IMG/VR virus record: IMGVR_UViG_3300043313_001040
Span: 8,015-72,014 of that record
Length of the DNA stretch: 64,000 nt
DNA from: a virus
Reading direction: 5' to 3' (one strand)
Under the pieces are notes generated by a model, which saw nothing but the letters and a program-made list of their open reading frames with translations, was not told the origin of the DNA and ran no database searches. Shown piece after piece: positions 12,101 to 47,760 of this stretch. Each line of letters opens with the position of its first letter. The first letter of the stretch is position 1. The position numbers and the translations under genes are program-made.

Positions 12101-12880
12101 TTACTCTTCCAACTTCAGGTGATCTTTGCCTCGCAACCGGTTTAGCCGTTTCTGGACTTCGATTTTGAGGCTAACCAACTGTTCGGGACGGACGCGGTAG
12201 TTGTAGAGGTCCTCGATCAACTCCACGTATTGCATCATGCTGGCGCACTTTACCATCCGACTGCTTTGGCCCTCGATTTTCTTTATCATGCGCTCAGGAT
12301 CGAAGTCCTTAATGTGGAACAAGTGCATGATCGCTACCGCCAACGGCCGATCCGTAGCAAACGGAATCAGCTTTTTGAGGGTAACGATGACGTGCGCCAC
12401 CTTGTAGGCGTGCTGTTCATTCACCACCCTGAACGTGCCGTATCGAATAGATTCGACTCCGCCGCCACTTTGTTTCCCTCCCAAGAGAGACGCGCTCGTC
12501 GTTACCGGGAGATGGAACTCATGGATGAACGCTCGCAGCTTCACGTAGTCCTTCTTGCCCTGCTCGGCGAAGGAATGCACGTAGTCCCGTGGCGACCACG
12601 GGGTTTGAACACTGTTAGCTGCCGATACGTCAACGATTGAGATGCTGTCTCGTTCAATGTAGAATATCGGCGTCCTAAGTGCCTTAGCCGCTTCGAATCG
12701 CGATTGTCCGTCCGCGATTCCCAATTTACCCAAATGCGGTGTCACCAGGATCGGATAATCCGCGAGCTGGTTCTTCCGCTTGATGGCTTTTATCATCTTG
12801 GCGACCCGTTTTGCCGTGGGTCGGTTGCCCTTGATGTAAGTGAACTTATTGTAGTCTGTTGTTGATAATACCTTAATCAT
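12101..12880 (-). CDS. ParB/Srx N-terminal domain protein
   Basis: F..IKGNR...YPILV..IADGQSRFEAAKAL, the ParB-N DG.HR-like motif. Confidence 0.75.
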   Translation of the reverse strand: MIKVLSTTDYNKFTYIKGNRPTAKRVAKMIKAIKRKNQLADYPILVTPHLGKLGIADGQSRFEAAKALRTPIFYIERDSISIVDVSAANSVQTPWSPRDYVHSFAEQGKKDYVKLRAFIHEFHLPVTTSASLLGGKQSGGGVESIRYGTFRVVNEQHAYKVAHVIVTLKKLIPFATDRPLAVAIMHLFHIKDFDPERMIKKIEGQSSRMVKCASMMQYVELIEDLYNYRVRPEQLVSLKIEVQKRLNRLRGKDHLKLEE

Positions 12881-12887
12881 GTTGTTG

Positions 12888-14540
12888 TTACTGACGTTTA
12901 ATGATCTGAATTAGGGAATCCGCTATGTTCTCGATCTCGTTCCTGACAAGAACGCTATCGAACCACTTGTGCAGCTTGTCGCTTCTTGCCCCAGGTTCTC
13001 CGACGTAGAGACCGATGGTGTAGACACCTTTCCGGTGCCACTCCTCCTTTCTGATGTGCTCGTCGGTGATCTCGCCGTCGGTGAAGAAGATCGTTAGATC
13101 GCTATTCACCAGCTCGGCCTCATTACTCCGCATGGTGTTAGCGAAGCCTTCGAAGCCTCCCGGGGTGTGGAGATGATTCAGAATCCTGGGATCGAATGGC
13201 ATCGGGACCTTGGCGTAGTTTCCTCCACTCAGGATCATATTTTTGCACTCGATCTTTCGCATTCTTACCAACTCGTTGAGCACGTAGGCCAGGTAGCACC
13301 CTTGTTCGGCAACTCCGCTCATTGAACCGCTGCAGTCCAGAACGAAGCTGATCTCTTTTACTCCATAGGGATCATCGCCTTTGCGCAGATAGATGTCGTC
13401 CGCGCCGCGCATGAACTTGTTGAAGTCGATCTTATTAGTCGGGTTCCGACTGGTTATAACTCCCTCGCCGCCCTCCAGGAACTTCTCGAACAACCGAATC
13501 AGGCCGTCAGCCTTCTTCGTGTCGATGGTTCTGATTTTGTGGCCGAAGAACTCGTTAAGTGGAAGCACCAGTTTCTTGTCCTTGTGATCTTGCACCTTCA
13601 AGTCCGGACGAGGCGGGTCCTTTTTGAGATGCCCACCTGACGGACTAGCGCCGCTGGTCCTGGCGACTGTTTCCTCGATTTCTTTGTGCTCGCTGCCATC
13701 GGCGGCCTCTGCGCCCTCTGGCATGGCTCCGTCGCCCGGGTCCTGAGGATCTGGCAAGTCGGTTCCATGTGGACCGGCAAACCCTTCTCCAGGCGCTAAA
13801 CCGCCAGATCCTTCCGCGCCGCCCCCGCCTGTCTCGGGAAAGGTTTTAATCCAGCTCTGGACAATAGGAATGATCTCTTCGGTCCCGGCCGCGTGGATTG
13901 CTCGCCGATAATACCACCTTATCAGGTTGCGACGCCCATACTTCGGGTCGCCAGCGCCTTCGAATTGCATCTTTGGGTCAGGATCTTTTTTCACCCAATC
14001 CTCCATCAGCTTTGGGCTGTTCTCCATGCGGGTGCAGTCGAGAAACAGCCTTACTGCTGGTTGCGGTTTGCCTTCCGCTTTTATGGCCTCAAGGGCTGGG
14101 TCGCCCTTCATCTCGTCGATCAGCTTCAGGTAGCGGAGCCACCCAAACCGACGACGAAACATTCGACGCCACTTGGCCTCGATCCGAGCGTCTTCCATCA
14201 GGTTCCACAAGTGGAACGGGATTTTCGCGTCTTTCTGGAGCGTCGCCATCCGTTCATTGGCCCGGTTGGTAAAGAGGCTGTGGGCCCCTTCGTGATCGTA
14301 AACACGTTGAACGAATGCCATCTTGCCCCTCGACCAGAGAGTGCGTTCGGCGCACTTGTCCAGGTCGGAAGCAATGACGATATTGTGGCGGCTAATACGA
14401 TTGTCGTAGCGCCACGATGCCTCTGGCTTGAAGCCCTCAGGCATAAAGGCTAGGTCGTAACCGTCAACGGTTGTCAGTCGCATGAACCGACTTTCGATGT
14501 GGTAATCAACCAGCCTCGTTTTTTCGCGATAGTTTAGCAT
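12888..14540 (-). CDS. vWA (MIDAS) domain protein with N-terminal HExxH region, CobT/MoxR partner
   Basis: HEGAH, NLMEDARIE, FVLDCSGSM, FFTDG. Confidence 0.85.
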   Translation of the reverse strand: MLNYREKTRLVDYHIESRFMRLTTVDGYDLAFMPEGFKPEASWRYDNRISRHNIVIASDLDKCAERTLWSRGKMAFVQRVYDHEGAHSLFTNRANERMATLQKDAKIPFHLWNLMEDARIEAKWRRMFRRRFGWLRYLKLIDEMKGDPALEAIKAEGKPQPAVRLFLDCTRMENSPKLMEDWVKKDPDPKMQFEGAGDPKYGRRNLIRWYYRRAIHAAGTEEIIPIVQSWIKTFPETGGGGAEGSGGLAPGEGFAGPHGTDLPDPQDPGDGAMPEGAEAADGSEHKEIEETVARTSGASPSGGHLKKDPPRPDLKVQDHKDKKLVLPLNEFFGHKIRTIDTKKADGLIRLFEKFLEGGEGVITSRNPTNKIDFNKFMRGADDIYLRKGDDPYGVKEISFVLDCSGSMSGVAEQGCYLAYVLNELVRMRKIECKNMILSGGNYAKVPMPFDPRILNHLHTPGGFEGFANTMRSNEAELVNSDLTIFFTDGEITDEHIRKEEWHRKGVYTIGLYVGEPGARSDKLHKWFDSVLVRNEIENIADSLIQIIKRQ

Positions 14541-14548
14541 ACTTCTCC

Positions 14549-15718
14549 TTAGTTAGGCCGAATCGGGAAGTGGCGAGCGATCAGCTTACGCAACTGATCC
14601 AATTGCTCTGGACTCCGGTGGCCCTGGATATTTCTACCTACCCATACCAGGGCTGAGTCGAGCAACGTATTGCCAATGTCCATCTCGTTCTCGGCCATCT
14701 TGATTCCATCGCAAAGAATACGAACATCCGGCTCCAGCATCAGGAAGTTATCTGCCTTCAGCTTTTTACCTTCAGAGAGTAGCTTCGCGAACTTCGGTGT
14801 AAGCGACACGCTGAACCCGTGATCTTTGAGCACGGTAGCTATGATTCGCTTCACCGATTCCTCCGTGGTCTGCAGATCATACTGCAACCATCTACCAGCT
14901 TCCGCTGGGTCACCTGCTTGAACGTCGAAACCCGCACCGATGTTTGTTGATGCGATGATTGAGATCATGTGACGCGGCGCGAAGATCGTCTCTTGATTGG
15001 TTACGAGACCATCTTCTACGTTAATGATCCGGCCAGTCGAAATCGTGTAATACTCGATCCCGTCTGGCATCCTGAATGGAGATAGACCGCTAATAAGCGG
15101 ACTGCGTTCGCGCACTTTGATCCTATACAACTCGTCGATGTAAAGACAGACTCTCTTGCCCTGGGACGCGAGTCGAAACGCGCGAGCCAGTTCACCATCC
15201 TGCCATACTGCTGTAGTTGCGCCTCCCGATGGAGCCCATGGTCTAGGCCCTCCTTTCATCTGTTGAGCGTCCACGCCTTCATCGCCCTGCATGAGAACGA
15301 CTTCATCGAACGGCTGCGAGTAGGCGAACACCTTCGCTGCCGTCGTTTTGCCCGAACCCTGGTCACCAATGAACAGGACCGGCTTCTTCGCTGCACCCGG
15401 AGGCACATACTTTCGAAGATACTTCATTACGCTGCTCTCATCACTCGCTTCTGGCGAGAGAGCAGCTTTGATTGCTTTCTTCTTCTCTACTGGTAACGGC
15501 TCGACGATCTTGGAGATGATCTCGTGCAGCTCTTTTTCAATCGGCGGGATGATGTCTTCCCGGCCGAGCTTTATTCTTGTTTCGCTGAGAATCTTGTAAA
15601 CATGATCCTCGATTTCCGCTTGCTGTGTGGGGCTAAGCGCCATATACTTCTTCTTCCCTTTCTTCCTGGCCTCCCTCAGCTTCTTACGTTTATGGTAAGC
15701 TGCGTCTCTGGTTGGCAT
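14549..15718 (-). CDS. MoxR/CbbQ-NirQ-type AAA+ ATPase
   Basis: Walker A GDQGSGKT, WQDGEL, Walker B YIDE, STN; next to vWA gene. Confidence 0.88.
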   Translation of the reverse strand: MPTRDAAYHKRKKLREARKKGKKKYMALSPTQQAEIEDHVYKILSETRIKLGREDIIPPIEKELHEIISKIVEPLPVEKKKAIKAALSPEASDESSVMKYLRKYVPPGAAKKPVLFIGDQGSGKTTAAKVFAYSQPFDEVVLMQGDEGVDAQQMKGGPRPWAPSGGATTAVWQDGELARAFRLASQGKRVCLYIDELYRIKVRERSPLISGLSPFRMPDGIEYYTISTGRIINVEDGLVTNQETIFAPRHMISIIASTNIGAGFDVQAGDPAEAGRWLQYDLQTTEESVKRIIATVLKDHGFSVSLTPKFAKLLSEGKKLKADNFLMLEPDVRILCDGIKMAENEMDIGNTLLDSALVWVGRNIQGHRSPEQLDQLRKLIARHFPIRPN

Positions 15719-15729
15719 TGTTGTTGTTT

Positions 15730-15745
15730 TTGCAGCACGCTGCAA
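15730..15745. repeat. 16-bp palindrome copy 3 (intergenic, upstream of MoxR gene)
   Basis: TTGCAGCACGCTGCAA. Confidence 0.9.
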
Positions 15746-15801
15746 AGAGGGTCGGACTCCTTGCAGCGAGGTTGTCAGACTTGTCCTACAGGGTCAAGTC
15801 T

Positions 15802-16002
15802 TTATTTTTCAGTGAAGGCAGCTATTCGCTCACCCAAAATGTCTGAGTATAACGTCATAGCTACCAGTTGCCGTTCGAGGCGTAACTGCTCTGGCCCCTT
15901 TACGGAGCGATATGCCTCGCCCCGAAGAAACGCGGTCAGTTTGTCACGCTTTTCGTCCAGCTCTTTTTTTTCGGTCACCACCCTTTCTTGATGTGGTGCC
16001 AT
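15802..16002 (-). CDS. crAss001_48-like helical hairpin protein
   Basis: PHQERVV.EK.ELD.K..KL.AF...EQ.RL..Q...M..YS.IL.ERI..F. Confidence 0.75.
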   Translation of the reverse strand: MAPHQERVVTEKKELDEKRDKLTAFLRGEAYRSVKGPEQLRLERQLVAMTLYSDILGERIAAFTEK

Positions 16003-16571
16003 TACGCCGCTTTCTTCGGGTTCTTCGGGTTCTCCACGCCTTCCTGGAGATACTCCGACAGCATCAGGTGCCCGAGGATCAGATCGTCGAGCATTTCCGA
16101 TGTTACGTAGTCCGGGATGATTTGCGGCAACGGTGGGCTCATCCCGTCGTCGAACCCAATCCAGTTGTTCTCGCCATCGTCGATGTCCGGCACGAACCGG
16201 GGAGCCGGATGGCCAACGGTGCCCGCACCACTGTTGATACGAGCCGTGAAGATGAAGTCCGGCGAAAACCGGGGATCATCATCTATGTCCATCCAACGTC
16301 CGCGTCCGTCGAACGGAGCGCGACCCGCCTTGAAGGCGTCGTAGTCCATCGGTTTGCGCAGCTTGAAGTAGTAATACCTCCCGTCTGCGTGCACGATGAT
16401 TCCTTCCTGGACGTAGATCGTGTCAGGGTCTACGTCTTCTTCCTTCATGCCTTCCGGCACGTAACCCGGAATGACATCCGGCTTCTTGACTACCGCATAG
16501 CGGTGCTGGTTGGCGTCCAGCAGGTAAACTAGATCCCATTCGGGATCGAATTTGCGTTCTACTCTTGGCAT
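16002..16571 (-). CDS. Hypothetical acidic protein
   Basis: 189 aa, CAA leader. Confidence 0.7.
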   Translation of the reverse strand: MPRVERKFDPEWDLVYLLDANQHRYAVVKKPDVIPGYVPEGMKEEDVDPDTIYVQEGIIVHADGRYYYFKLRKPMDYDAFKAGRAPFDGRGRWMDIDDDPRFSPDFIFTARINSGAGTVGHPAPRFVPDIDDGENNWIGFDDGMSPPLPQIIPDYVTSEMLDDLILGHLMLSEYLQEGVENPKNPKKAA

Positions 16572-16655
16572 AACTGTTGTTGCTTTCTATTTTTGTGGAA
16601 AGGGCGGCCCCGAATCAACCAAGGACCGAGGCCGCCCGACTTCCGTTGTTTCTAA

Positions 16656-18197
16656 TTAGGCTCCGAGCGACTTCTTGATCTTCTTAACGTCGCCTGCCAC
16701 TGCATCGACCTTCGGGCCGATGACTTCTTCGATTGCCACCCGCGAAGGCGACAATATTTGATGTGCTTTCTTGACCAGGCTCAGGTCCTTCTCGGCCTGA
16801 GTCGTGCCATCGCCGCGTGGGCGAGCCTTCTTCTGCATGACCTCGCCAGCGATCACCAACATTTCTGTGGTGACGCGCGCGTCGATCTCTGCACCGAACT
16901 TGCCAATCGCACGCATCTTTGCGCGATTGATGCCGTTCACGATGTCCGCAGGCACCAGGTCCTTGAACGCCTCCCCGATAGCCGTAATGTCCACGTCCGG
17001 CGCAATGAATTGCCCCGCGACATGTTGAACGAAACGACCAGCCGCCTCCGCATCTGGCGGCGTAAGCTCGATGTCGATGTCGACACGGCCGGACCGCATG
17101 AATGCGTCGTTGATCTTCTCAGGGAAGTTGGTCGTGAAGACCGTGATGACTTCCGCGTTTTTGGCACCGACACCATCGAGCGTCTCCAGGATGGAGTTCA
17201 TCTCTTTGGTCCGTTCCCCGCTGAAGATCGCGTCGCAATCCTCAACGAACAGCACCGATGGGCTGTAGAGCTGCGCCAGCTTGTAGGCCGACAGGAACTT
17301 CTCCGGAGTTTTCAGGTAGAAGTAAGTCCACCCGTGCTCCTTCGCGATCTGCGCCGTGTAATACGACGTGAGCGATTTACCGGTTCCGAACTTGCCCTTC
17401 AACAGCACGCCGCGCTTCACGGCGACTCCATTGATTCGGAAGTCCTGCGGACGTTTCATAACGTCCCAGACCTCCGTCTGCAGCTCGAACTCGATGTCTC
17501 GCGGAAGAATGAGCATGACCTCCTTGGTCACGTCCATATACTTCGGCGCACACTGCGTCGGATCGAAGTTCTCCGTTCCGACATAGCTCAGATCAAGTTC
17601 AACCGGCTGACCGCGATAGATGGAGTGTTCCTTCAGGAACCACTTCGCGGTTTCGACGACTTCCTTGATCGAAGGCTCGAATTTGCGTTTCACAACGCCC
17701 GACACTCCCAACGCGAGAGGTGCACTCGCACCCTTCACGAACAGGCTAAGGCTTCCACCTTCCCATGCGGGCGGAGCCATCTCGCCATAAACAACCTGGA
17801 CGCTTTCTTCCAGGCTGACGGCGATGTTGAGACGACGCGGCGGCCGAGGGCCGAAGAACGTCATTCTCTCCTTGGCGTGGGTGAACCCATACACCTTTTC
17901 TAAGGCCCTGTTCACGGCCACGATGCCATCCAGAGGATAGCAGTCGAACTCGAAGGAGATTTCCACTGGCTGCTCCTCCAACTCCTCAGCCTGGAGCAAT
18001 GCCTTGTGCAGCTCCTTGTAGCTGTTGGCCCGGACAAACCGTTGCCCGAACCGTAGGACCTCGAATTGAGGCTCGACTACCGCCGTCCCTTCTTTGACGG
18101 ACGACTCCCTGCCGATCAGCTCCGTTGTTACCAGAGCTTTATCGGATACATCTGCTTTTCGTGTTTTTACCATTTGATACCTACTTCTTCTAAGCAT
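16656..18197 (-). CDS. Classic-clade AAA+ ATPase (CDC48/FtsH-like ATPase domain)
   Basis: RGVLLKGKFGTGKS, VLFVEDCD, TTN.PEKI..AFMRSGRVD. Confidence 0.88.
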   Translation of the reverse strand: MLRRSRYQMVKTRKADVSDKALVTTELIGRESSVKEGTAVVEPQFEVLRFGQRFVRANSYKELHKALLQAEELEEQPVEISFEFDCYPLDGIVAVNRALEKVYGFTHAKERMTFFGPRPPRRLNIAVSLEESVQVVYGEMAPPAWEGGSLSLFVKGASAPLALGVSGVVKRKFEPSIKEVVETAKWFLKEHSIYRGQPVELDLSYVGTENFDPTQCAPKYMDVTKEVMLILPRDIEFELQTEVWDVMKRPQDFRINGVAVKRGVLLKGKFGTGKSLTSYYTAQIAKEHGWTYFYLKTPEKFLSAYKLAQLYSPSVLFVEDCDAIFSGERTKEMNSILETLDGVGAKNAEVITVFTTNFPEKINDAFMRSGRVDIDIELTPPDAEAAGRFVQHVAGQFIAPDVDITAIGEAFKDLVPADIVNGINRAKMRAIGKFGAEIDARVTTEMLVIAGEVMQKKARPRGDGTTQAEKDLSLVKKAHQILSPSRVAIEEVIGPKVDAVAGDVKKIKKSLGA

Positions 18198-18271
18198 GGG
18201 ATTTGTTGTTGTTATTTACCTGACCCACCCACACTAAACTGGCTTCCAGGTAATCTGCTGTAACGTTGGCA

Positions 18272-18320
18272 GCAGACTGGGGGAGAGTCCTTAGCTAAAT
18301 GGACTCTCCCCGGTGTCTGC
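18272..18320 (-). other. Long intergenic RNA hairpin (processing site or terminator)
   Basis: GCAGAC..GGGGAGAGTCC / GGACTCTCCCC..GTCTGC. Confidence 0.6.
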
Positions 18321-18323
18321 AAC

Positions 18324-18578
18324 CTATGCGATTACGGCTTCTGTTTTCTTTTTCATCGCTTTACGCCGGTCTTCCTGGGTAAGTTTGCCCAGTTTGACCC
18401 GAGTCCGTAGCTGAGACGGACTTCCGATTTCAGGATGAATTGAAACTGCGATTAGTCGTTTTTCGCGGTTCGCTTTTCGCCGAAGCAGCTTGACTGGATA
18501 TGTCGCTTTGAAGTTCGCGTAATATCCTTTGTCTGCCGAGTGTCGGCGCATTTTGCTTTTCGATACTCCTTGTGCCAT
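18324..18578 (-). CDS. Small highly basic protein
   Basis: Perfect SD AAGGAGGTGAT; K/R-rich 84 aa. Confidence 0.75.
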   Translation of the reverse strand: MAQGVSKSKMRRHSADKGYYANFKATYPVKLLRRKANREKRLIAVSIHPEIGSPSQLRTRVKLGKLTQEDRRKAMKKKTEAVIA

Positions 18579-18664
18579 TCTTAATCACCTCCTTTCTGGT
18601 TGGCCTAACGAGGGGTTAGTCGTCAGCCAACTGTTTAGCAATTATCTTTCTTTTTGTTGCTGCT

Positions 18665-18886
18665 TTATACTTTCTCCAGAATGCTCCGGTCCGTCAGACC
18701 AGTAGCGAACGCCCACAGCAGGAGCGCCTTTGCAGGCAGCTCGTATGGATGTTCTTTCTGGGCTTGCTCACCAACCGTGAGAAGCTCACCAACTGGCGTC
18801 CCAAACGGCTCAGGATCTGGGTTCAGATGCTGAGGACCGGTGGAGACACACGTTGCGTATTGGTGGATGTTGCTATACTTCTTCAT
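18665..18886 (-). CDS. Hypothetical protein
   Basis: ORF in early operon. Confidence 0.5.
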   Translation of the reverse strand: MKKYSNIHQYATCVSTGPQHLNPDPEPFGTPVGELLTVGEQAQKEHPYELPAKALLLWAFATGLTDRSILEKV

Positions 18887-19004
18887 AGCTATTACTTCTG
18901 CATTGGCCTTTCTAAAGGGCCGACTTGTTGTTGTTGTTACCGAATTGGCTTATGCCAACCGGACTAGAACACCGAAGGATTGAACTTCGATGCTCTGTGT
19001 CCGA

Positions 19005-19289
19005 TCAAGAACCACTTACCGGTAGGATAAATCCTACCGTTACTTCTCCGTCTTTCAGCTCTCTAAATCCGACTGCCAATACCAGGTAACGCTTGTCGTT
19101 GTAACGGATCACGTCACCCATGCTAACTGACGGAAGCTTCTGAGCCTGAATGTCGTTTTGTCCATAGTAATAAATGGTCGACAGGTTTGTTTCGGTCAGG
19201 TCGCTGACCAAGGTTACAGGGACTTCGACCTTTCGGATCTCCCCCTGGGCGAACATGTTGAGTTCGACTTCGTAGGTTATGTTTCTCAT
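19005..19289 (-). CDS. YodL-like domain protein
   Basis: PSVSMGDVI.....YLVLAVGFREL. Confidence 0.7.
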   Translation of the reverse strand: MRNITYEVELNMFAQGEIRKVEVPVTLVSDLTETNLSTIYYYGQNDIQAQKLPSVSMGDVIRYNDKRYLVLAVGFRELKDGEVTVGFILPVSGS

Positions 19290-19630
19290 TACCCGTGCAC
19301 CTCGACTTTGACTCCCGTGATCTTGGTGTAGATCTCCGCGAGGTTTTTGAACTTCTCGATGATGCTCTTGGCGTAGGGACCCGAGCGATGACGTGCCTGG
19401 ATGTAAAGATCTCCTGTGTCCTCATCCGTTTTGAGCCACCAGTCGTTCGTGCCACCGATCACGAGATCGGGACCAACTGAATCGTGATCTTCCCAGTCGG
19501 CCGGATAACAGTTCGGATGATCTGGTGATATGGCCGTCGCGAACAACAAGGCCAAGGTGACCTTGCTGAAATGCATTGCTGCTCTGAATTGCATTTCGGA
19601 AATAATGTTTCCGATTTCATTGTCTTTCAT
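19289..19630 (-). CDS. Hypothetical protein
   Basis: First ORF downstream of ncRNA; coupled to the next gene. Confidence 0.7.
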   Translation of the reverse strand: MKDNEIGNIISEMQFRAAMHFSKVTLALLFATAISPDHPNCYPADWEDHDSVGPDLVIGGTNDWWLKTDEDTGDLYIQARHRSGPYAKSIIEKFKNLAEIYTKITGVKVEVHG

Positions 19631-19657
19631 ACTTCTGCCTTTCTACTTCTGCTTTTT

Positions 19658-19673
19658 TTGCAGCGTGCTGCAA
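19658..19673. repeat. 16-bp palindrome copy 4 (3' end of ncRNA)
   Basis: TTGCAGCGTGCTGCAA. Confidence 0.9.
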
Positions 19674-19689
19674 TCGTATGATTGCATAA

Positions 19690-20430
19690 CGACACCTGCT
19701 CCCAACACACCATTGCTGATGCGCTGGGAGCAAGCGGTCGGGTAGTTGACTGTCACTCAACTCCCGACATTGCTGATCTTGCCTACTACAGTGGGCACTC
19801 ACGGTGCTCTGCGCTTTTGCTTCTCACGCTTCACTGCTCTTCCGAGTCCGGTTGATTACGGCATACCCATACCAGGTTTGGACTGGCTTTGGTGTTGCTG
19901 GCGGTCGGCCCTCCCGGGTGACGATGCTACTCGTCCCGACACAGCTAATCCGTAATTCGGCAAGATTCTTGAATGTAATCTCCTGCACTGACCACGAACC
20001 ACTCGTGGCTGATGTTCTCTTCTGCACTCCATAGTTAACAGTCGCATATTGTTGGCGTTCAGAACTCCGATGGGAGCCAGGAAGTTTCTCTCAGGAAACC
20101 TTATCCTATCTCCATCCCGCATACTGCGGGGGCCCGGCGATGCAGTAACATCACCCGTTTAGTCTGGCCTTCATCTCGTCTGTGTGCCATTTTAGCGGAA
20201 CACTCCACTTCAGAGATTACACTTTTTAGGAACCATCGTCAGCTACAGTCATATGAATTCAGGATGCGCGTCTACTCGCTAAGCGCCTCTCCGTGGAGTC
20301 TCCGGGCGTCTGCCGGTTAGACCTTTATAGGACAAGGTTATGCCTAGCGAAGTGATCCGAGTTACTCCGGGTTCACTTGCTACTCGCTAACATCCTGAAT
20401 GACCATCAATGGTGACGACCATCCCTAATT
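19690..20430 (-). ncRNA. Large ornate structured ncRNA (about 740 nt; GOLLD/ROOL-class candidate or new class)
   Basis: Gene-free gap; nested long-range helices 20413-20428/20226-20241, 20391-20400/20257-20266, 20212-20222/19973-19983, 19950-19956/19855-19861; 18-bp GCAA-capped hairpin 19695-19734 whose G-U pairs fix the minus strand. Confidence 0.8.
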
Positions 20431-20433
20431 AAA

Positions 20434-20466
20434 TTTTCAAAGAACTGGCGATGTCCGAGAACATCG
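20434..20466 (-). promoter_or_regulatory. rrn-like boxB hairpin plus boxA (GTTCTTTGAAAA) antitermination element
   Basis: Hairpin CGATGT/ACATCG followed by GTTCTTTGAAAA just 5' of the ncRNA. Confidence 0.6.
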
Positions 20467-20486
20467 TCTGCTACCTATGCAAAACG

Positions 20487-20513
20487 AAAAAAGGCCAAGG
20501 TTTCCCCTGGCCT
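20487..20513 (-). terminator. Rho-independent terminator downstream of terS
   Basis: AGGCCAGGGG-AAA-CCTTGGCCT followed by T-tract. Confidence 0.65.
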
Positions 20514-20593
20514 ACTCGTATTATGCATACTAAGACAAAATTAAAAAAAATTTTGCCTTGATCCGGCCCAAAAACCGGTCTGAAAAAAACGAC

Positions 20594-21172
20594 CTAAACT
20601 TTGGAGGTCGGCCACTCCTTCTCGTGAATCGCGATTAAAGCTTCGTCGACTGCTTCACGCAGGAGCAGCTCGATCTCTTCCTTGGGACGCATCTCAACAA
20701 CCGGTGCCATCTTTGACGGCAGCGACAGCATGATTGTGCGGACCGCTGTCATCGCCTTGGAGACCCACAGCTTGCAGTCGTCGTTCGTGTGGTATTGGCC
20801 GAGCCGAATCTTTTGCTCCAGCTCCAGGCGCTCGCATACTGCAGTAAGTTTTCGAATCTCCAGCTCTGACTTCATCGGAGACGGCGGCTCGCTTCCGCCT
20901 AACGAACTAACCTTGCCGGTCTCGTCCATCCAGGCTTTCCATGCGAGCACGTTGTAGAGGCCCTTTCTTCGCCCCGGGCATCCGCTCTCACGTGTCCAGC
21001 GATTCACCGTTTCACGCGCGATCCCCAGCGCGTCGGCCAGGTCTTGCTGGGTGCTAACAAAACTTTCCTCATCGTCTTCGCTCTCCGTCATCTTGGCCAA
21101 ATCAGCGTCCGACATCTTCACGTCCTTCATCGCTTTACGAAGGCGCTTGCTTGTTGCTTCTTTTGTGGGCAT
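20594..21172 (-). CDS. terS: Terminase small subunit (Nu1-like)
   Basis: wHTH TQQDLADALGIARETVNRW...GCP, coiled coil, MLSLPSKMAP. Confidence 0.8.
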   Translation of the reverse strand: MPTKEATSKRLRKAMKDVKMSDADLAKMTESEDDEESFVSTQQDLADALGIARETVNRWTRESGCPGRRKGLYNVLAWKAWMDETGKVSSLGGSEPPSPMKSELEIRKLTAVCERLELEQKIRLGQYHTNDDCKLWVSKAMTAVRTIMLSLPSKMAPVVEMRPKEEIELLLREAVDEALIAIHEKEWPTSKV

Positions 21173-21190
21173 ACGTTATGTCTTACGCCA

Positions 21191-22996
21191 ATGGATATTA
21201 TCGAGCAAGCTATTCGTGACGCTTGCACTCCAGCAGATAGACGGCCGCCGTGGAAATGGGCCGAGGATTATTGTTACGTCGCGACCTCACCGTTCCCCGG
21301 CAAATGGCGCTCTGATAACTCGCCCTGGGTAAAGGAACTCATGGAGTCCTTCGCTGATGGTGTCGTTAAAACGATCTCGGTCATGTGCTCTGCTCAGTCG
21401 GCCAAGACTGAGACCATGCTCGTCATGCTGAACTGGATCATCAGCGAAGATCCAGGCCCGACCATGTGGGTCACGAGTAACGACGACGAAGCCCTCAAGT
21501 TCTGCATCGAGCGGCTCATGCCGACTCTCAACTCATGCGACAAAGTTCGCGAGCTGATGCCGAAGAATCTGACCGGCTCCATCGACCGCAGAAAAGCCAA
21601 GGCACAGGAGATTCACTTCCCCCGAATGACGCTGGAAGTTATCGGCTCCAACTCCGAGTCGAAGCTGCAGTCTAAGCCGCGCCGCTGGCTACTGATGGAC
21701 GAGGTTCGCAACTGGCCGGATGGCGCACTGCCGATGGTGCTCAAACGAACCCGCGCCTATTACAACGCCAAGCGCATCATCATCTCGACGCCCAAAGATC
21801 AGCATGATGCGGTGCACCAGAACTTCATCCAGGGCGACCAGAGGCATTGGCACATTTCGTGCCCCAAGTGCGGTCATGATCAGGTAATGACCTGGGAAAA
21901 AATTAAGTGGGACGAAAACGGGGTCACAAGGCCTAACGGATTGTGGGACTTCGATGAGATGGCTAAGACCATCCGCTTCGAATGCGAGAAGAACAAATGC
22001 CAGATTACGGACAACCCCGTCGACCGCCGACACTTCGCTCGTAACGGAAAGTGGGTGCCGCACAACCGGCTGGCTCCAAAACACTATAGGTCCTACTGCT
22101 GGAATGCGCTGATCCCAACCTGGGTTCGCTGGCGCGATCTCGTGGAGGAATTCATCAATGCGAACAAAGCTCTGTCATGGGGGGACCCGGAGCCGCTCAA
22201 GACCTTCGTGAACGAAACACTGGGCGAACCGTGGGAAGATCGTATGCAATGGGGCGATGATTCCGCATACTTGGAAGCTCGCAAGGCCGACTACCGCATG
22301 GGCGAAGCCTGGGCCGATGAGAAGACCCGCTTCATTGGTGTCGACGTTCAGAAGGACTATCTGCGTTACGTGGTCCGCGCATTCGCTGATGGCGGCCGCT
22401 CGCGGCTCATTGACTATGGCACGCTGAAGAATTTCGATGATCTGAAGGGAAAGATCGCCGAGCTGCACGTCGACCCAGATAACGTCATCCTGGATGCGGC
22501 CCACAAGACGCCGGACGTTTATAAAGCTGTCATCGACTCCGGTTACACGTGGAAGCCGTTCTGGGGCGACGACCGCGTTTACTTTACTCTGAAGGGCGTT
22601 AAATCTGTCTGGACGGTCAACACCGTCGATCCGTTCATTGGCACCCGTTACGAGGGGCGCGCCCAGCCGATCCGGTTGTTTCACTGGAGCAATCCGTCGA
22701 TCAAGGACACGCTCATGATGATGATGCAGGGGAAATCTTCCCAGTGGGAGATCCCAAAGCACGTCGGCCAGGATTACGTCCTGGAAGTGACGGCCGAATA
22801 CCGACAGGAAGTCGTCGACCTGCGCGGACAGATTCGTTATAAATACGCCAGGAAGCGTAAGGAAAACCACGCATTCGACTGCGAGTGCATGATCCTCACG
22901 GCGGCCATCATCAACCGCCTCGTCGGTCTACCGGAACCCTTGGAGAGGGCCCCGGTAGAACCGATGGCTAAAGAGGAGACTTTCGCTGCGTTGTGA
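21191..22996 (+). CDS. terL: Terminase large subunit, GpA family
   Basis: WAE..Y..PGKW, SAQSAKTE Walker A, LMDE, ISTP, CPKC, GVDVQ RuvC-like, NHAFDC; start MDIIEQ. Confidence 0.96.
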   Translation: MDIIEQAIRDACTPADRRPPWKWAEDYCYVATSPFPGKWRSDNSPWVKELMESFADGVVKTISVMCSAQSAKTETMLVMLNWIISEDPGPTMWVTSNDDEALKFCIERLMPTLNSCDKVRELMPKNLTGSIDRRKAKAQEIHFPRMTLEVIGSNSESKLQSKPRRWLLMDEVRNWPDGALPMVLKRTRAYYNAKRIIISTPKDQHDAVHQNFIQGDQRHWHISCPKCGHDQVMTWEKIKWDENGVTRPNGLWDFDEMAKTIRFECEKNKCQITDNPVDRRHFARNGKWVPHNRLAPKHYRSYCWNALIPTWVRWRDLVEEFINANKALSWGDPEPLKTFVNETLGEPWEDRMQWGDDSAYLEARKADYRMGEAWADEKTRFIGVDVQKDYLRYVVRAFADGGRSRLIDYGTLKNFDDLKGKIAELHVDPDNVILDAAHKTPDVYKAVIDSGYTWKPFWGDDRVYFTLKGVKSVWTVNTVDPFIGTRYEGRAQPIRLFHWSNPSIKDTLMMMMQGKSSQWEIPKHVGQDYVLEVTAEYRQEVVDLRGQIRYKYARKRKENHAFDCECMILTAAIINRLVGLPEPLERAPVEPMAKEETFAAL

Positions 22997-22998
22997 AT

Positions 22999-23014
22999 TT
23001 GCAGCACGCTGCAA
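22999..23014. repeat. 16-bp palindrome copy 5 (between convergent stops)
   Basis: TTGCAGCACGCTGCAA. Confidence 0.9.
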
Positions 23015-23257
23015 TCAGCCTTCGTCGCCAACGATGTTTGCTAGACTTCGGATGAGTCGGCCGGTGATCAAAACGACGTATTTCTGACCAGCCTCGTTCT
23101 CGAACACCAGGTCAACCGTTGAGAGGTCTTCCGTGGTGCCGTGTCGAACGACATTGGCATGGTCGATCTTCGCCGCCAGGAATTCCGGTGGCCGGAATAT
23201 TGGCGCTTTGGATGGATGATCGAAGACGTTTACTTTGAGATCAGTCTGACCACTCAC
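23015..23257 (-). CDS. Hypothetical protein
   Basis: STVDLVFENEAGQKYV; coupled to upstream gene. Confidence 0.7.
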   Translation of the reverse strand: MSGQTDLKVNVFDHPSKAPIFRPPEFLAAKIDHANVVRHGTTEDLSTVDLVFENEAGQKYVVLITGRLIRSLANIVGDEG

Positions 23258-23847
23258 GAGATCAGCCGGGAGTGGATGTTAGCCACACCTGAGAGCATCC
23301 GAGCACAGGTTTCTTTCCTCTCTGAAGACCAATCTTCGAGCGGTGATTGCTCGAATTCGTCGGCGAAATACCGCTCGATCTTGGCCGCCCAGGTTACGAA
23401 CGATTCCCGTTTCTCGTCCTTCTTCTTCTTCTTGGCTGGGTCGTTGTCGTCGCACAGCTTTAGGACATCGCGAATGCTCTCGCATTTCTCAATTTCCGAT
23501 GCGTGCTTTGCCATCGCCTCGCTGACCTTCATGTAATTGTAGGCCGTGCGCTGCGAGAACTCGAAGGTTTCCGCCAGCCATTCCGTGAAGTTTTTATCCT
23601 TCGGGAGCTGGACTTTCGCTGCTAGGAGAAGCTGTCCGGCGCGGGCAGCGGCGATTACCGCTCTACCCATCTGACCAATCGCCGCTTTGTGGCTCTGCTT
23701 GATTTCTTCCGTAAGGGCTTCGATGCCTTCCGGAACCTCTGAGGAGAGAAGACTTAAGTCGACTGCGGGCGCGTCCTTGGACAACCTGTCCGCTTTGGTG
23801 ATCCGACCTACGGCACCTTTGGTGCCTTTCCTTGTGAATTCTGCCAT
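23254..23847 (-). CDS. DUF3102-like DNA-binding protein
   Basis: AGQLLLAAK...FTEWL.E.FEFSQRTAYNYM. Confidence 0.75.
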   Translation of the reverse strand: MAEFTRKGTKGAVGRITKADRLSKDAPAVDLSLLSSEVPEGIEALTEEIKQSHKAAIGQMGRAVIAAARAGQLLLAAKVQLPKDKNFTEWLAETFEFSQRTAYNYMKVSEAMAKHASEIEKCESIRDVLKLCDDNDPAKKKKKDEKRESFVTWAAKIERYFADEFEQSPLEDWSSERKETCARMLSGVANIHSRLIS

Positions 23848-24372: not shown

Positions 24373-24618
24373 ATGGATGACTGGCTGATCATTTATCGCA
24401 CATATAGTGCCGAGGAGCTGGCCGCCGAGATTCAATTCCTCAAAGAAGAGCTGGCCAATCCTTACTCGGCCCAGGGGCTCGGTAGCCAGTCCGCCCAGCG
24501 TGATCTTAATGCTTTGAAGAACCGATTGTCGTCCGCTCTCCGGGTAGTCAGCGAGCGTGGCGGCGTTCGGCTCATCCAGGATAGTGTGGTTGATTTTAGC
24601 CGGGGACTTAACATCTAA
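24373..24618 (+). CDS. gpW-like head completion protein
   Basis: Small helix-strand-helix ORF directly upstream of a lambda portal. Confidence 0.65.
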   Translation: MDDWLIIYRTYSAEELAAEIQFLKEELANPYSAQGLGSQSAQRDLNALKNRLSSALRVVSERGGVRLIQDSVVDFSRGLNI

Positions 24619-46801: not shown

Positions 46802-47131
46802 ATGGACTCAGCACCTACCCCTTCAGTGATGCAGCAGCAGAAGAACGTATTCGAGTTCATCACTGACCAGCTCGGCACTAACCCCACTGAGTCGAAGAAG
46901 TTTCTCATGGCTCTTGTTGGAATCATTGCCATTTTTCTCCAGTTCGTTGTGTCGGCAGTGTTGATGTTCTACCGCACGGACTTGGGCGCGCACTTGGTTG
47001 CGATGTTCACAATCGCCGTCCCATCGCTCGCGGGTATTGTCGCAATCTACCTCGGCGCTCAGGGTGCCGTTGAAGTCAAAGCTAATGGGGTGCTCCAGCA
47101 TCAGGCCCAGGACCTCGCTTCAAAGCTATGA
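46802..47131 (+). CDS. Holin
   Basis: SKKF then two TM helices, YLGAQG; directly before endolysin. Confidence 0.75.
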   Translation: MDSAPTPSVMQQQKNVFEFITDQLGTNPTESKKFLMALVGIIAIFLQFVVSAVLMFYRTDLGAHLVAMFTIAVPSLAGIVAIYLGAQGAVEVKANGVLQHQAQDLASKL

Positions 47132-47760
47132 GCCCATCGGAAGCTAAGGATAAGATTCGCCAGATCCAGCGCATCCTTGAAGTCAAAGATGATGGCGACT
47201 TTGGAGTCAACAGTAAGCTTGCGCTTTCCAATCTCGATAACATCAGTCGTCAGCTCCCTCAGCCATCAATCGTAACACCGCCACCAGGGTCTGGAGAGAC
47301 GCCGGTTGATCCGCGAAGCGAGAAAGCCATCGCCACGTTGCATCCACGGGTCCAGCCAATCGCTCGTCAGTTCGTGAAGCTCACGGCCGCCAATGGCATC
47401 AAGGTTGAGATCACGTCGGGCACCAGGAGTTATGCCGAGCAGCAGGCGCTCTTTGACAAGCACGATGGAACGACCCGTGCTCCGGCTGGTTATTCGAACC
47501 ACAACTTCGGTCTCGCCTTCGATGTCACGATGGATGCCGAACCGGACGACACCCTGCAGCCGGTCTGGGAATCACCGCTCTACAAGAAGCTTGGAGTGCT
47601 CGGCAAAAGCCTGGGGCTGACCTGGGGCGGCGACTGGCAAAGCATCGTGGACGAACCGCACTTTGAAGTGCGCCCTCCGTGGGCCAAAGATTTAAGCGAG
47701 ACCTCAATGATCTCGGAGCTACGACGACGCCATGCCGCAGGAATCGACGCCTTCGCCTGA
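47128..47760 (+). CDS. Endolysin, peptidase M15 (L-Ala-D-Glu, CwlK-like) with N-terminal PG-binding segment
   Basis: SGTRSYAEQ, SNHNFGLAFD, WGGDW, DEPHFE; DGDFG. Confidence 0.92.
   Translation: MSPSEAKDKIRQIQRILEVKDDGDFGVNSKLALSNLDNISRQLPQPSIVTPPPGSGETPVDPRSEKAIATLHPRVQPIARQFVKLTAANGIKVEITSGTRSYAEQQALFDKHDGTTRAPAGYSNHNFGLAFDVTMDAEPDDTLQPVWESPLYKKLGVLGKSLGLTWGGDWQSIVDEPHFEVRPPWAKDLSETSMISELRRRHAAGIDAFA

What the first reader, a model, noticed from the sequence alone, without database searches (positions are those of the whole stretch)
19690..20466. About 740-nt ornate non-coding RNA with an rrn-type boxA, heading the early operon
Seen: the only large gene-free gap folds on the minus strand into nested domains. 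Domain 1 is closed by UUAGGGAUGGUCGUCA/UGACGAUGGUUCCUAA (20428-20413 with 20241-20226, 15 of 16 pairs) and contains AUUCAGGAUG/CAUCCUGAAU. Domain 2 is closed by GUGUAAUCUCU/GGAGAUUACAU (20222-20212 with 19983-19973). Domain 3 is closed by AUUACGG/CCGUAAU. Then come GUCGGGAGUUGA/UCAACUACCCGAC and an 18-bp stem with a GCAA tetraloop and 4 G-U pairs (19734-19695) that only pairs fully on the minus strand. Several GAGUAG (loop-E-like) segments recur. Just 5' is a hairpin followed by GTTCTTTGAAAA. Known: that 12-mer resembles the rRNA-operon boxA used by Nus factors, and phage-borne giant RNAs (GOLLD, ROOL) have this size and style. Inference: an abundant, Nus-antiterminated structural RNA, either a divergent GOLLD/ROOL relative or a new class. 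I cannot assign the family by eye.
Basis: partly seen in the sequence, partly recalled or inferred. Interest (0 to 1): 0.9.

Follow-up and report, generated by a model that had tools for sequence, protein, structure and literature searches.

The report
Large folded leader RNA in phage
The gene-free gap in this uncultured soil phage encodes a real, densely folded non-coding RNA of about 770 bases that matches no catalogued RNA family; only its two ends are kept in the one relative I could fetch, so what the large fold does is still unknown.

Summary
The minus strand folds far better than shuffles (z -7.5, 0 of 20), the plus strand does not (z -1.8). No ORF in the gap is conserved. Soil metatranscriptome contigs cover the stretch, and those of three RNA runs stop at 20457-20459, where a DNA contig runs on.

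It matches none of the 4227 Rfam 15 families, GOLLD, ROOL and introns included.

Only one relative could be fetched (L004). It has a syntenic gap that folds equally well (z -9.4). Only the ends are alike:
- a 5' module of a 15-nt motif, a hairpin and a U-rich boxA-like box (z 4.3);
- a 3' pair of hairpins, with 11 of 32 pairs changed on both sides.

The ~650-nt interior cannot be aligned (z 1.2) and my structure models find no counterpart.

Best reading: an rrn-style, boxA-led, untranslated structured leader RNA that starts the leftward operon behind the terS terminator. The Nus role is inferred and the interior's function is unknown.

This scan has noted similar boxA-led phage leader RNAs on other DNA. 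None resembles this one in sequence.

The parts
19693..20459 (-). The structured non-coding leader RNA as best delimited: 5' end about 20459, last conserved hairpin ends at 19693
   Evidence: Fold z -7.5 on the minus strand against -1.8 on the plus strand. RNA-run contigs of X1, X2 and X5 stop at 20459, 20459 and 20457, while DNA-run contig X3 spans 20417-20567. No Rfam family. The 3' border is inferred from the last conserved hairpin; no terminator follows it.
20482..20513 (-). Intrinsic-terminator-like hairpin plus T-run that closes the terS-like gene's unit, just upstream of the RNA
   Evidence: 9-pair stem with 6 G-C pairs, followed by a T-run.
20519..20532 (.). TATGCATA-centred palindrome, also present upstream of the L004 gap; possible operator or promoter element
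   Evidence: Unique in the window; seen in the L004 sequence. Function inferred.
20466..20480 (-). Conserved 15-nt motif at -21 to -7 of the RNA-contig 5' end; promoter-like or processing signal
   Evidence: A second copy with 1 mismatch lies at 18329-18315 on the minus strand, also followed by a hairpin. A related form stands before the L004 hairpin. No sigma-70-type promoter lies in 19200-21400.
20449..20466 (-). 7-bp hairpin (the 'boxB-like' position)
   Evidence: L004 has a hairpin of different sequence at the same place. The RNA contigs start in its loop, so it is uncertain whether it is whole in the RNA.
20434..20445 (-). boxA-like 12-mer GUUCUUUGAAAA
   Evidence: Exact fit to GYTCTTTRAMAA. 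It contains the UCUUUGAAA core of the B. subtilis rrn boxA-like consensus printed in PMC13753749. Most of it is unpaired in the fold.
20226..20428 (-). Domain 1, closed by a 15-pair long-range helix, with two copies of UUAGCGAGUAG
   Evidence: z -4.25 sense against -2.81 antisense. 11-nt repeat. No counterpart in L004 with model R1.
19972..20223 (-). Domain 2, multi-branched, closed by a 12-pair helix
   Evidence: z -3.65 sense against -2.49 antisense.
19776..19966 (-). Domain 3, multi-branched
   Evidence: z -2.38, 1 of 100 shuffles as good. Skipped in L004 by model R3.
19737..19768 (-). Conserved hairpin A (GUCGGG...CCCGAC)
   Evidence: Model R2 finds it in L004. Of its 12 pairs, 5 changed on both sides and 1 is unpaired in L004.
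19693..19736 (-). Conserved 20-bp hairpin B with GCAA loop; candidate double-strand-specific processing or stability site
   Evidence: Of 20 pairs, 6 changed on both sides, 3 on one side, 11 unchanged, none broken. G-U and U-G are kept at pairs 2 and 4. The RNase III role is inferred.
19657..19673 (-). One of 12 copies of the genome-wide palindrome, between the RNA and the next start codon
   Evidence: Kept at the same place in L004.
20594..21172 (-). Upstream Nu1-like small terminase / HTH gene
   Evidence: phrog_57, E 3.2e-21. HTH families. Two of 30 relatives are named terminase Nu1 subunit by their source.
19289..19630 (-). First ORF downstream (113 aa, no family), reached without a terminator
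   Evidence: RNA run X5 contigs cover 19396-19683.

Best explanation
The gap encodes a transcribed, non-coding, densely base-paired RNA of about 770 nt (about 20459 to 19693, minus strand). It opens the phage's long leftward operon, directly behind the terminator of the terS-like gene.

It has a conserved frame:
- at the 5' end, a 15-nt promoter-like motif, a hairpin and a single-stranded U-rich boxA-like box, laid out like a bacterial rrn leader;
- at the 3' end, two covarying hairpins, the second a 20-bp duplex;
- then a copy of the phage's genome-wide palindrome and the ribosome-binding site of the next gene.

Most likely mechanism (inferred):
- The boxA-like box loads the host NusB/S10-type antitermination complex. 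RNA polymerase can then cross about 770 untranslated nucleotides without Rho-dependent or hairpin-induced termination, while the RNA folds co-transcriptionally.
- The long 3' duplex then acts as a processing or stability site that separates a stable folded RNA from the downstream mRNA.

The ~650-nt interior is kept long, ORF-free and strongly folded in both phages, but not in sequence. Its job is not known. A multi-site binding platform or decoy is possible, given the four CGAGUAG copies.
For: Shown:
- Fold far better than shuffles, and strand-asymmetric.
- 0 of 4227 Rfam families at gathering score, and nothing relevant at E <= 10.
- tblastx between the two gaps gives at best E 0.059, and all frames hold 10-19 stops.
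- The 88-aa ORF has no homologue among 5.8 billion proteins.
- 10 of the 24 listed soil runs holding the stretch are metatranscriptomes, and the two best holders are RNA runs.
- RNA-run contigs cover 19763-20459. In three runs they stop at 20457-20459, where a DNA contig runs on.
- A terminator-like hairpin lies upstream and none lies at the 3' end.
- L004 has a syntenic gap of about 840 nt with z -9.35.
- The 5' module and the 3' module are significantly alike between the two phages (z 4.26 and 5.97, 0 of 150 shuffles each).
- Model R2 finds the 3' module in L004 at 31.5 bits, E 2.4e-5.
- Of 32 pairs there, 11 changed on both sides and 98.4% of cells are paired, against 33-46% for slid controls.
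- The boxA-like 12-mer fits the pattern exactly and follows a small hairpin, as described for rrn leaders (passages of PMC13753749; PMC8632103).
- CGAGUAG is clustered.

Inferred: Nus loading, Rho evasion, and processing at hairpin B.
Against: - The interior is not alike between the two phages (global alignment z 1.21, 16 of 150 shuffles as high).
- Models built from window domains 1 and 3 with their predicted folds find no counterpart in L004.
- In L004 the interior folds as well antisense (z -5.35) as sense (z -5.83).
- Blind 250-nt windows inside the RNA are no more structured than many coding windows.
- L004 has GUUUUUUAGAAAA in place of the boxA-like box, which fails the pattern.
- The degenerate pattern is not enriched in the window (4 matches with <= 1 mismatch against 2.06 expected). 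A second exact copy sits inside a plus-strand gene at 47448.
- The RNA contigs begin in the loop of the 'boxB' hairpin.
- Contigs cannot give strand, level or true ends, and the runs were chosen because they hold this stretch.
- Covariation rests on 2 sequences, and the alignment was fitted to the structure.
Confidence: 0.55

Rival explanations
1. It is only a long 5' untranslated leader. The conserved ends carry ordinary signals: a promoter or start-site motif, and an mRNA-stabilising hairpin with translation control in front of the next gene. The interior is a fast-drifting spacer whose base pairing is generic, for instance to avoid Rho and RNases. The boxA likeness is a coincidence.
For: - The interior cannot be aligned and models R1 and R3 find no counterpart.
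- No terminator separates the fold from the next gene, and RNA run X5 covers the downstream ORF too.
- The boxA-like box is degenerate in L004 and the pattern is not enriched.
- Many coding windows of the operon also give negative z-scores.
- A check of a similar claim on other DNA raised the same objection (note e1-172887).
Against: - Two phages whose neighbouring proteins are only 63-78% identical both keep 650-700 ORF-free nucleotides with z -5.3 and -5.8. A neutral spacer should shrink or lose its fold.
- CGAGUAG is clustered (4 of the window's 6 copies).
- The hairpin followed by a U-rich box is kept in position.
Confidence: 0.25
2. It is a discrete ornate RNA with one defined three-dimensional fold: a new class in the style of GOLLD or ROOL. 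On this reading L004 carries a member too diverged for my single-sequence models, or a different class in the same slot.
For: - The size, the nested multi-branched domains, many GNRA-type and GUR-rich hairpin loops and the recurring CGAGUAG.
- RNA-run contigs are continuous over 19763-20459 and sparse on the flanks in X1 and X2.
- Models built from a predicted fold of one sequence are weak detectors.
Against: - No Rfam hit to GOLLD, ROOL or any family.
- There is no residual sequence likeness in the interior. Known large RNAs keep conserved junctions and loops over far larger distances (established knowledge, not tested here).
- No terminator defines a separate gene.
Confidence: 0.12
3. It is a DNA-level element beside the terminase genes, such as a packaging site, a replication origin or a regulatory region with protein-binding inverted repeats. 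Transcription through it would be incidental.
For: - The gap lies next to the divergent Nu1-like terS and gpA-type terL genes.
- It contains a palindrome shared with L004 and one copy of the 12-copy palindrome.
- In L004 the two strands fold equally well.
Against: - In the window the fold is strand-specific (interior -5.31 against -1.44).
- G-U and U-G pairs are kept in both phages in hairpin B; on the other strand they would be mismatches.
- No iterons or tandem repeats lie inside the RNA; the only array is at 19624-19656.
- Composition is ordinary.
- The stretch is assembled from RNA libraries.
Confidence: 0.05
4. The gap hides one or more small protein genes.
For: Open frames of 61-88 aa with start codons exist on the minus strand.
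Against: - No conserved translation between the two gaps.
- The 88-aa ORF has no relative and was not itself on record as a called gene.
- 11-19 stops per sense frame.
- By eye I see no Shine-Dalgarno sequence before its ATG (sequence).
Confidence: 0.03

Closest known systems
Bacterial rrn operon leader: nut-like boxB hairpin, boxA, boxC and the Nus/SuhB/S4 antitermination complex
   Same: A small hairpin near the 5' end is followed directly by a single-stranded U-rich box. That box contains the B. subtilis consensus core UCUUUGAAA and fits the E. coli pattern G-UCUUU-A-A (passages of PMC13753749). It precedes a long, untranslated, highly folded RNA, the situation in which the rrn complex prevents Rho termination and chaperones folding (passages of PMC8632103). 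A long duplex at the end recalls rRNA processing stems (recalled).
   Different: It is a phage transcript that leads into protein genes. No boxC was sought. The box is degenerate in the only relative. The RNA-run contigs start inside the hairpin. No binding or antitermination test was possible.
GOLLD and ROOL large ornate RNAs, often phage-borne
   Same: The size class (600-800 nt), multi-domain nested helices, phage location and unknown function (bioRxiv 10.1101/2024.12.08.627333: I saw only the search listing and the start of the abstract).
   Different: No match to either Rfam model even at E 10. No terminator of its own. The interior is not conserved in the one relative. No neighbouring tRNAs.
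Phage nut/put-type processive antitermination sites (lambda nut, HK022 put)
   Same: An RNA signal at the head of a long early operon that would make the host polymerase termination-resistant (passages on lambda N and boxA in PMC8632103).
   Different: The order is hairpin then box, which is the rrn order, not lambda's. No N-like protein was identified. The element is ten times longer than nut or put (their sizes recalled).
boxA-led large phage leader RNAs noted earlier in this scan (e1-172887, e1-5787140, e1-5911450, e1-5874228, e1-5595844, e1-6111450)
   Same: The same layout is described: a gene-free 0.45-1.3 kb at the head of an early operon, a strong fold, no Rfam family and a boxA-like box at the start. 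Two are from uncultured soil phages.
   Different: These are unchecked AI notes on other DNA. None shares sequence words with this stretch, and I could not see their sequences. Here the interior is not conserved in the relative.

Membership tests
GOLLD (Rfam) | Match to the family covariance model | tested here: not met
   No hit at gathering score over the whole window, and none among the 9 hits at E <= 10 in 19300-20900.
ROOL (Rfam) | Match to the family covariance model | tested here: not met
   as above.
Group I / group II introns, OLE, HEARO, raiA and all other Rfam 15 families | Match to a family covariance model | tested here: not met
   0 of 4227 families at gathering score. The only intron row is a 13.2-bit plus-strand hit inside the terS gene, against a cut-off of 55.2.
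rrn-type boxA antitermination site | boxA consensus sequence | tested here: met
   GUUCUUUGAAAA at 20445-20434 fits GYTCTTTRAMAA with 0 mismatches. The consensus strings are from PMC13753749; the degenerate pattern is my own merge of the two.
rrn-type boxA antitermination site | Position in the leader, just after a small 5' hairpin and single-stranded | tested here: inconclusive
   The hairpin at 20466-20449 lies 3 nt upstream and most of the box is unpaired in the fold. However, the RNA-run contigs begin at 20459, in the hairpin loop.
rrn-type boxA antitermination site | Conservation of the box in relatives | tested here: inconclusive
   L004 keeps a hairpin followed by a U-rich box at the same place (5' module z 4.26), but its box reads GUUUUUUAGAAAA and fails the pattern. 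n = 1 relative.
rrn-type boxA antitermination site | Binding of NusB/S10 and Nus-dependent read-through | not testable with these tools
   Needs biochemistry or genetics; the host is unknown.
RNase III processing stem | A duplex of about two helical turns | tested here: met
   Hairpin B has 20 pairs in the window and 19 aligned pairs plus a longer tip in L004.
RNase III processing stem | Cleavage in the stem | not testable with these tools
   Contigs cannot show ends there.
Protein-coding gene | Conserved open frame or a homologue | tested here: not met

The most novel reading that the evidence does not exclude
This is one instance of an unrecognised, widespread phage strategy. Unrelated phages place a host rrn-style hairpin and boxA in front of a giant, fast-evolving folded RNA at the head of an operon. 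The conserved frame recruits the host's rRNA transcription machinery. The variable, motif-studded interior (here four CGAGUAG copies) acts as a host-specific multi-site decoy or scaffold, released by cleavage at the 3' duplex.
Probability: 0.25. Interest if true: 0.8.

Novelty: new variant of a known kind. Interest (0 to 1): 0.55.

Why it matters
If the reading holds, a soil phage with no cultured relative spends about 1% of its genome on an untranslated, elaborately folded RNA. Its large terminase is under 27% identical to that of any isolate. The RNA would be made in the way bacteria make ribosomal RNA.

Together with the similar, unchecked cases this scan noted in other phages, it would point to a general use of host rRNA-type antitermination for large phage RNAs of unknown function. 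Six full-text searches found no such description.

The conserved-frame, variable-interior pattern gives a concrete experimental handle. The ends can be mutated separately from the core.

If instead it is only a structured 5' UTR, it is of modest interest.

Tried and rejected
**Homologue hunting**
- blastn of the gap against INPHARED phages found nothing.
- tblastn of the terS-like protein against the same collection found nothing. terL gave only distant hits under 27% identity.
- The search for related loci with the terS-like protein, with terL, and with the 30-protein alignment A2 in viral contigs returned only the L004/L007 contig.
- A2 in metagenome contigs and genome contigs found no relative.
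- The pattern from the 3' module gave 6 chance hits in viral contigs.
- The 17-mer palindrome gave 11 stretches in viral contigs, one of them the L004 contig itself (L007). The other 10 lack the terS, terL and downstream-ORF proteins, and five of their whole records lack the terS-like protein.
- The 17-mer gave 119 metagenome stretches. None has the locus; L105 holds only a terL C-terminus.
- A gapped 3'-module pattern gave 120 stretches in genome contigs. Model R2 found nothing in the 80 I searched; 40 were not searched.
- R2 over L005-L140 found only L007.

**Structure and sequence tests**
- The MAFFT alignment of the two gaps is unreliable.
- Models R1 and R3 found no interior counterpart in L004.
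- GGA motifs are not enriched, so nothing supports a CsrA-type sponge.
- Internal direct repeats of 10-20 nt are near chance level, apart from the CGAGUAG cluster.
- No sigma-70-type promoter was found.
- By eye, sigma-54, Bacteroidota-type and ECF-type promoter readings of the 15-nt motif did not fit.

**Read layout**
- Depth differences between the RNA and its flanks are likewise not usable.

**Not seen**
- Supplements of PMC13753749 (its rrn alignments) were not opened.
- The 'nearest in print' items for T7 and phiEco32 come from an earlier scan note, and I did not verify them.
Full report
**Setting**

The window is bases 8015-72014 of a 72,014-bp IMG/VR virus record with direct terminal repeats, rated complete.
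- Genes from about 24.3 kb down to 1 run on the minus strand. The structural genes, with the portal at 24618, run on the plus strand.
- A gpA-type large terminase gene lies on the plus strand within the 21044-22996 ORF. It diverges from a 192-aa HTH protein on the minus strand (20594-21172).
- That HTH protein hits the small-terminase family phrog_57 (E 3.2e-21). The sources of two of its 30 relatives call it a terminase Nu1 subunit.
- The large terminase is under 27% identical to that of any phage in the INPHARED collection, so the lineage is uncultured.
- The finding lies in the gap between that gene and the next minus-strand ORF (19289-19630, no family).

- Stretch 19690-20466 folds at -297.6 kcal/mol against -249.7 +/- 6.4 for dinucleotide shuffles (z -7.5, 0 of 20). 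The plus strand gives z -1.8 (1 of 20).
- With exact domain borders and 100 shuffles each, the sense z-scores are: domain 1 -4.25, domain 2 -3.65, domain 3 -2.38, the two 3' hairpins -9.05.
- The 653-nt interior alone gives -5.31 sense against -1.44 antisense.

Two cautions apply.
- The borders came from the fold itself.
- In blind 250-nt windows the interior is unremarkable (z +0.6 to -3.5), and several coding windows of the same operon reach -4 to -6.8 with 12 shuffles. The excess stability therefore lies in long-range closing helices and the terminal hairpins.

CGAGUAG occurs 6 times in the window counting both strands. Four of these lie on the minus strand at 19927, 20272, 20380 and 20512. 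By my own estimate, a 7-mer recurring four times in about 880 nt has a chance of roughly 0.006 after allowing for all 7-mers.

**It is not coding and not a catalogued RNA**

- tblastx between this gap and the syntenic gap of the relative gives nothing better than E 0.059, and every frame holds 10-19 stops.
- The longest ATG ORF (88 aa, 19856-20122) has no homologue among 5.8 billion proteins and was not itself on record as a called gene.
- cmscan against all 4227 Rfam 15 families gives no hit at gathering score in the 64-kb window.
- Permissive scanning of 19300-20900 gives 9 rows with E from 0.48 to 9.3, all far below their cut-offs. None is GOLLD, ROOL, OLE or HEARO, and none is a credible intron.
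- There are no tRNAs.

**It is transcribed**

- Twenty-four soil runs hold part of the stretch. Ten are metatranscriptomes, and the two best holders (0.69 and 0.50 of the sampled words) are RNA runs.
- Laid on 16500-23500, the RNA-run contigs cover 19763-20327 and 20299-20459 (X1), 19834-20180 and 20266-20459 (X2), and, among others, 20307-20457 (X5). All are identical to the window.
- All three runs stop at 20457-20459, while a DNA-run contig (X3) spans 20417-20567. The tool rates this kind of pattern a weak hint of an RNA end.
- X5 also covers 19396-19683, so transcripts reach the next gene.
- Contigs give no strand, level or true ends, and the runs were selected for holding this stretch. 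I therefore do not claim abundance.

**Boundaries**

- Upstream, the terS-like gene is followed by a terminator-like hairpin at 20513-20492 with a T-run.
- No sigma-70-type promoter is found in 19200-21400.
- A 15-nt motif at 20480-20466 lies at -21 to -7 of the contig end. It recurs with one mismatch at 18329-18315 on the same strand, again followed by a hairpin (z -4.1). A related form precedes the hairpin in the relative. It may be a promoter of unknown type or a processing signal.
- Downstream of the last hairpin there is no terminator. A copy of the phage's palindrome (12 sites in the window against 0.26 matches expected) and a purine-rich tract lead to the ATG at 19630.

**Comparison with the only relative I could fetch**

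- L004 is a 4751-bp IMG/VR contig. It encodes the terS-like protein at 63% identity, terL at 78%, and a homologue of window ORF 19005-19289 at 47%.
- Between terS and that ORF it has an ORF-poor gap of about 840 nt, which folds with z -9.35 (0 of 20).
- The 5' module (motif, hairpin, U-rich box) aligns with z 4.26 and the 3' module with z 5.97. In both cases 0 of 150 shuffles score as high.
- The interiors score z 1.21, with 16 of 150 shuffles as high.
- A covariance model of the two window 3' hairpins finds the L004 counterpart at 31.5 bits, E 2.4e-5, and nothing else in the window except its own antisense.
- On that alignment, 11 of 32 pairs are changed on both sides and 98.4% of cells are paired. 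Partners slid by 1-3 columns give 33-46% paired and 0-2 double changes. One of 500 shuffles reaches the observed covariation.
- In the 20-bp hairpin the G-U and U-G pairs at positions 2 and 4 are kept. This argues for selection at the RNA level on this strand.
- These counts rest on two sequences, and the alignment was fitted to the model.
- Models built from window domain 1, and from domain 3 plus the hairpins, find no interior counterpart. R1 gives only generic hairpins, and R3 aligns the hairpins but skips 185 positions of domain 3.
- In L004 the interior folds as well antisense (z -5.35) as sense (z -5.83).

So what is shown to be conserved is a frame. The interior is kept in length, in lack of ORFs and in strong folding, but not in sequence or in a fold I can detect.

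**The boxA question**

- GUUCUUUGAAAA (20445-20434) fits a pattern merged from the E. coli (UGCUCUUUAACA) and B. subtilis (AUGAUCUUUGAAA) rrn consensus strings printed in PMC13753749 (passages), with no mismatch. It contains the B. subtilis core UCUUUGAAA.
[quoted passage not shown] PMC8632103 (passages) states that rrn sites have the order boxB-boxA-boxC, that boxA is the dominant element, and that the complex forms an RNA chaperone ring.
- The layout here is the same, and most of the box is unpaired in the fold.
- Against it:
  - L004 has GUUUUUUAGAAAA.
  - The pattern is not enriched in the window (4 matches with up to 1 mismatch against 2.06 expected; 15 of 100 shuffles reach 4).
  - A second exact match sits in a plus-strand gene at 47448.
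  - The RNA contigs begin in the hairpin loop.
- I put the Nus role at roughly even odds.

**How it most likely works**

- Shown: a transcribed, non-coding, strongly folded RNA of about 770 nt. It has conserved end modules, lies behind a terminator, and runs into the next gene.
- Inferred:
  - The box loads NusB/S10-type factors, so that polymerase crosses the untranslated stretch without Rho termination and the RNA folds as it emerges.
  - The 20-bp hairpin serves as a double-strand-specific processing or stability site. This would give a discrete RNA and a hairpin-capped mRNA.
  - The interior, with its clustered CGAGUAG and many GUR-rich hairpin loops, could be a multi-site platform or decoy.
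- GGA motifs are not enriched, so nothing points to a CsrA-type sponge.

**Comparison with known systems, and novelty**

- It is not a member of GOLLD, ROOL or any other Rfam family.
- It works most like an rrn leader joined to a large structured RNA. Phage use of boxA in nut sites is textbook knowledge (PMC8632103 passages).
- Six full-text searches returned no paper describing a boxA-led large structured leader RNA in phages. That is not proof of absence.
- This scan has already noted the same layout in other phages: phiEco32-like, T4-like, freshwater, Paraburkholderia and two soil phages. None shares sequence with this stretch.
- One check of such a claim objected that it may be only the message's untranslated front end. 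My data leave that rival alive.
- I rate it a new variant of a known kind, with interest 0.55.

**Limits**

The DNA of the 29 closer relatives, which would decide the covariation question, could not be fetched.
- Only one relative was compared.

Noticed in passing
window 2645, 7950, 15730, 19658, 22999, 27784, 33869, 42129, 47786, 51796, 56836, 59078: Twelve dispersed copies of a 16-17-bp palindrome (TTGCAGC-ACG-CTGCAA type). That is 24 matches counting both strands, against 0.26 expected. Exact copies also occur in 11 IMG/VR contigs and at least 119 metagenome contigs, so it is probably the site of a dimeric DNA-binding protein. One copy sits between the RNA and the next gene in both phages.
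   Followed up: partly
window 18315-18329 (-) and 18198-18330: A second copy, with 1 mismatch, of the 15-nt motif that precedes the RNA. It overlaps the stop codon of the 84-aa ORF and is followed by an 11-bp hairpin, in front of the AAA+ ATPase gene. The 133-nt intergenic stretch folds with z -4.1. It may be a phage-specific promoter or a processing signal.
   Followed up: partly
window 47448-47459 (+): A second exact match to the degenerate boxA pattern (GCTCTTTGACAA), inside a plus-strand ORF (47128-47760). It may be chance.
   Followed up: no
window 20594-21172 (-) and 21044-22996 (+): The Nu1-like small terminase gene and the gpA-type large terminase gene are divergent, and their listed ORFs overlap at the 5' ends. 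L004 has the same arrangement.
   Followed up: partly
window 20519-20532; L004 about 1975-1995: A TATGCATA-centred palindrome lies about 60-70 nt upstream of the RNA's 5' hairpin in both phages. In the window it sits just before the terS terminator hairpin. It could be an operator for the adjacent HTH protein.
   Followed up: no
window 14000-19000 (-): Several 250-nt windows of the early coding region fold well below shuffles on the sense strand (z down to -6.8 at 18251, -5.9 at 15751, -5.1 at 14001; 12 shuffles each). This may point to further structured elements or to a general bias.
   Followed up: no
window 12101-12880 (-): A ParB-like protein (phrog_12305, E 1.1e-35) is encoded in the early operon. 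Most other early proteins have no family.
   Followed up: no
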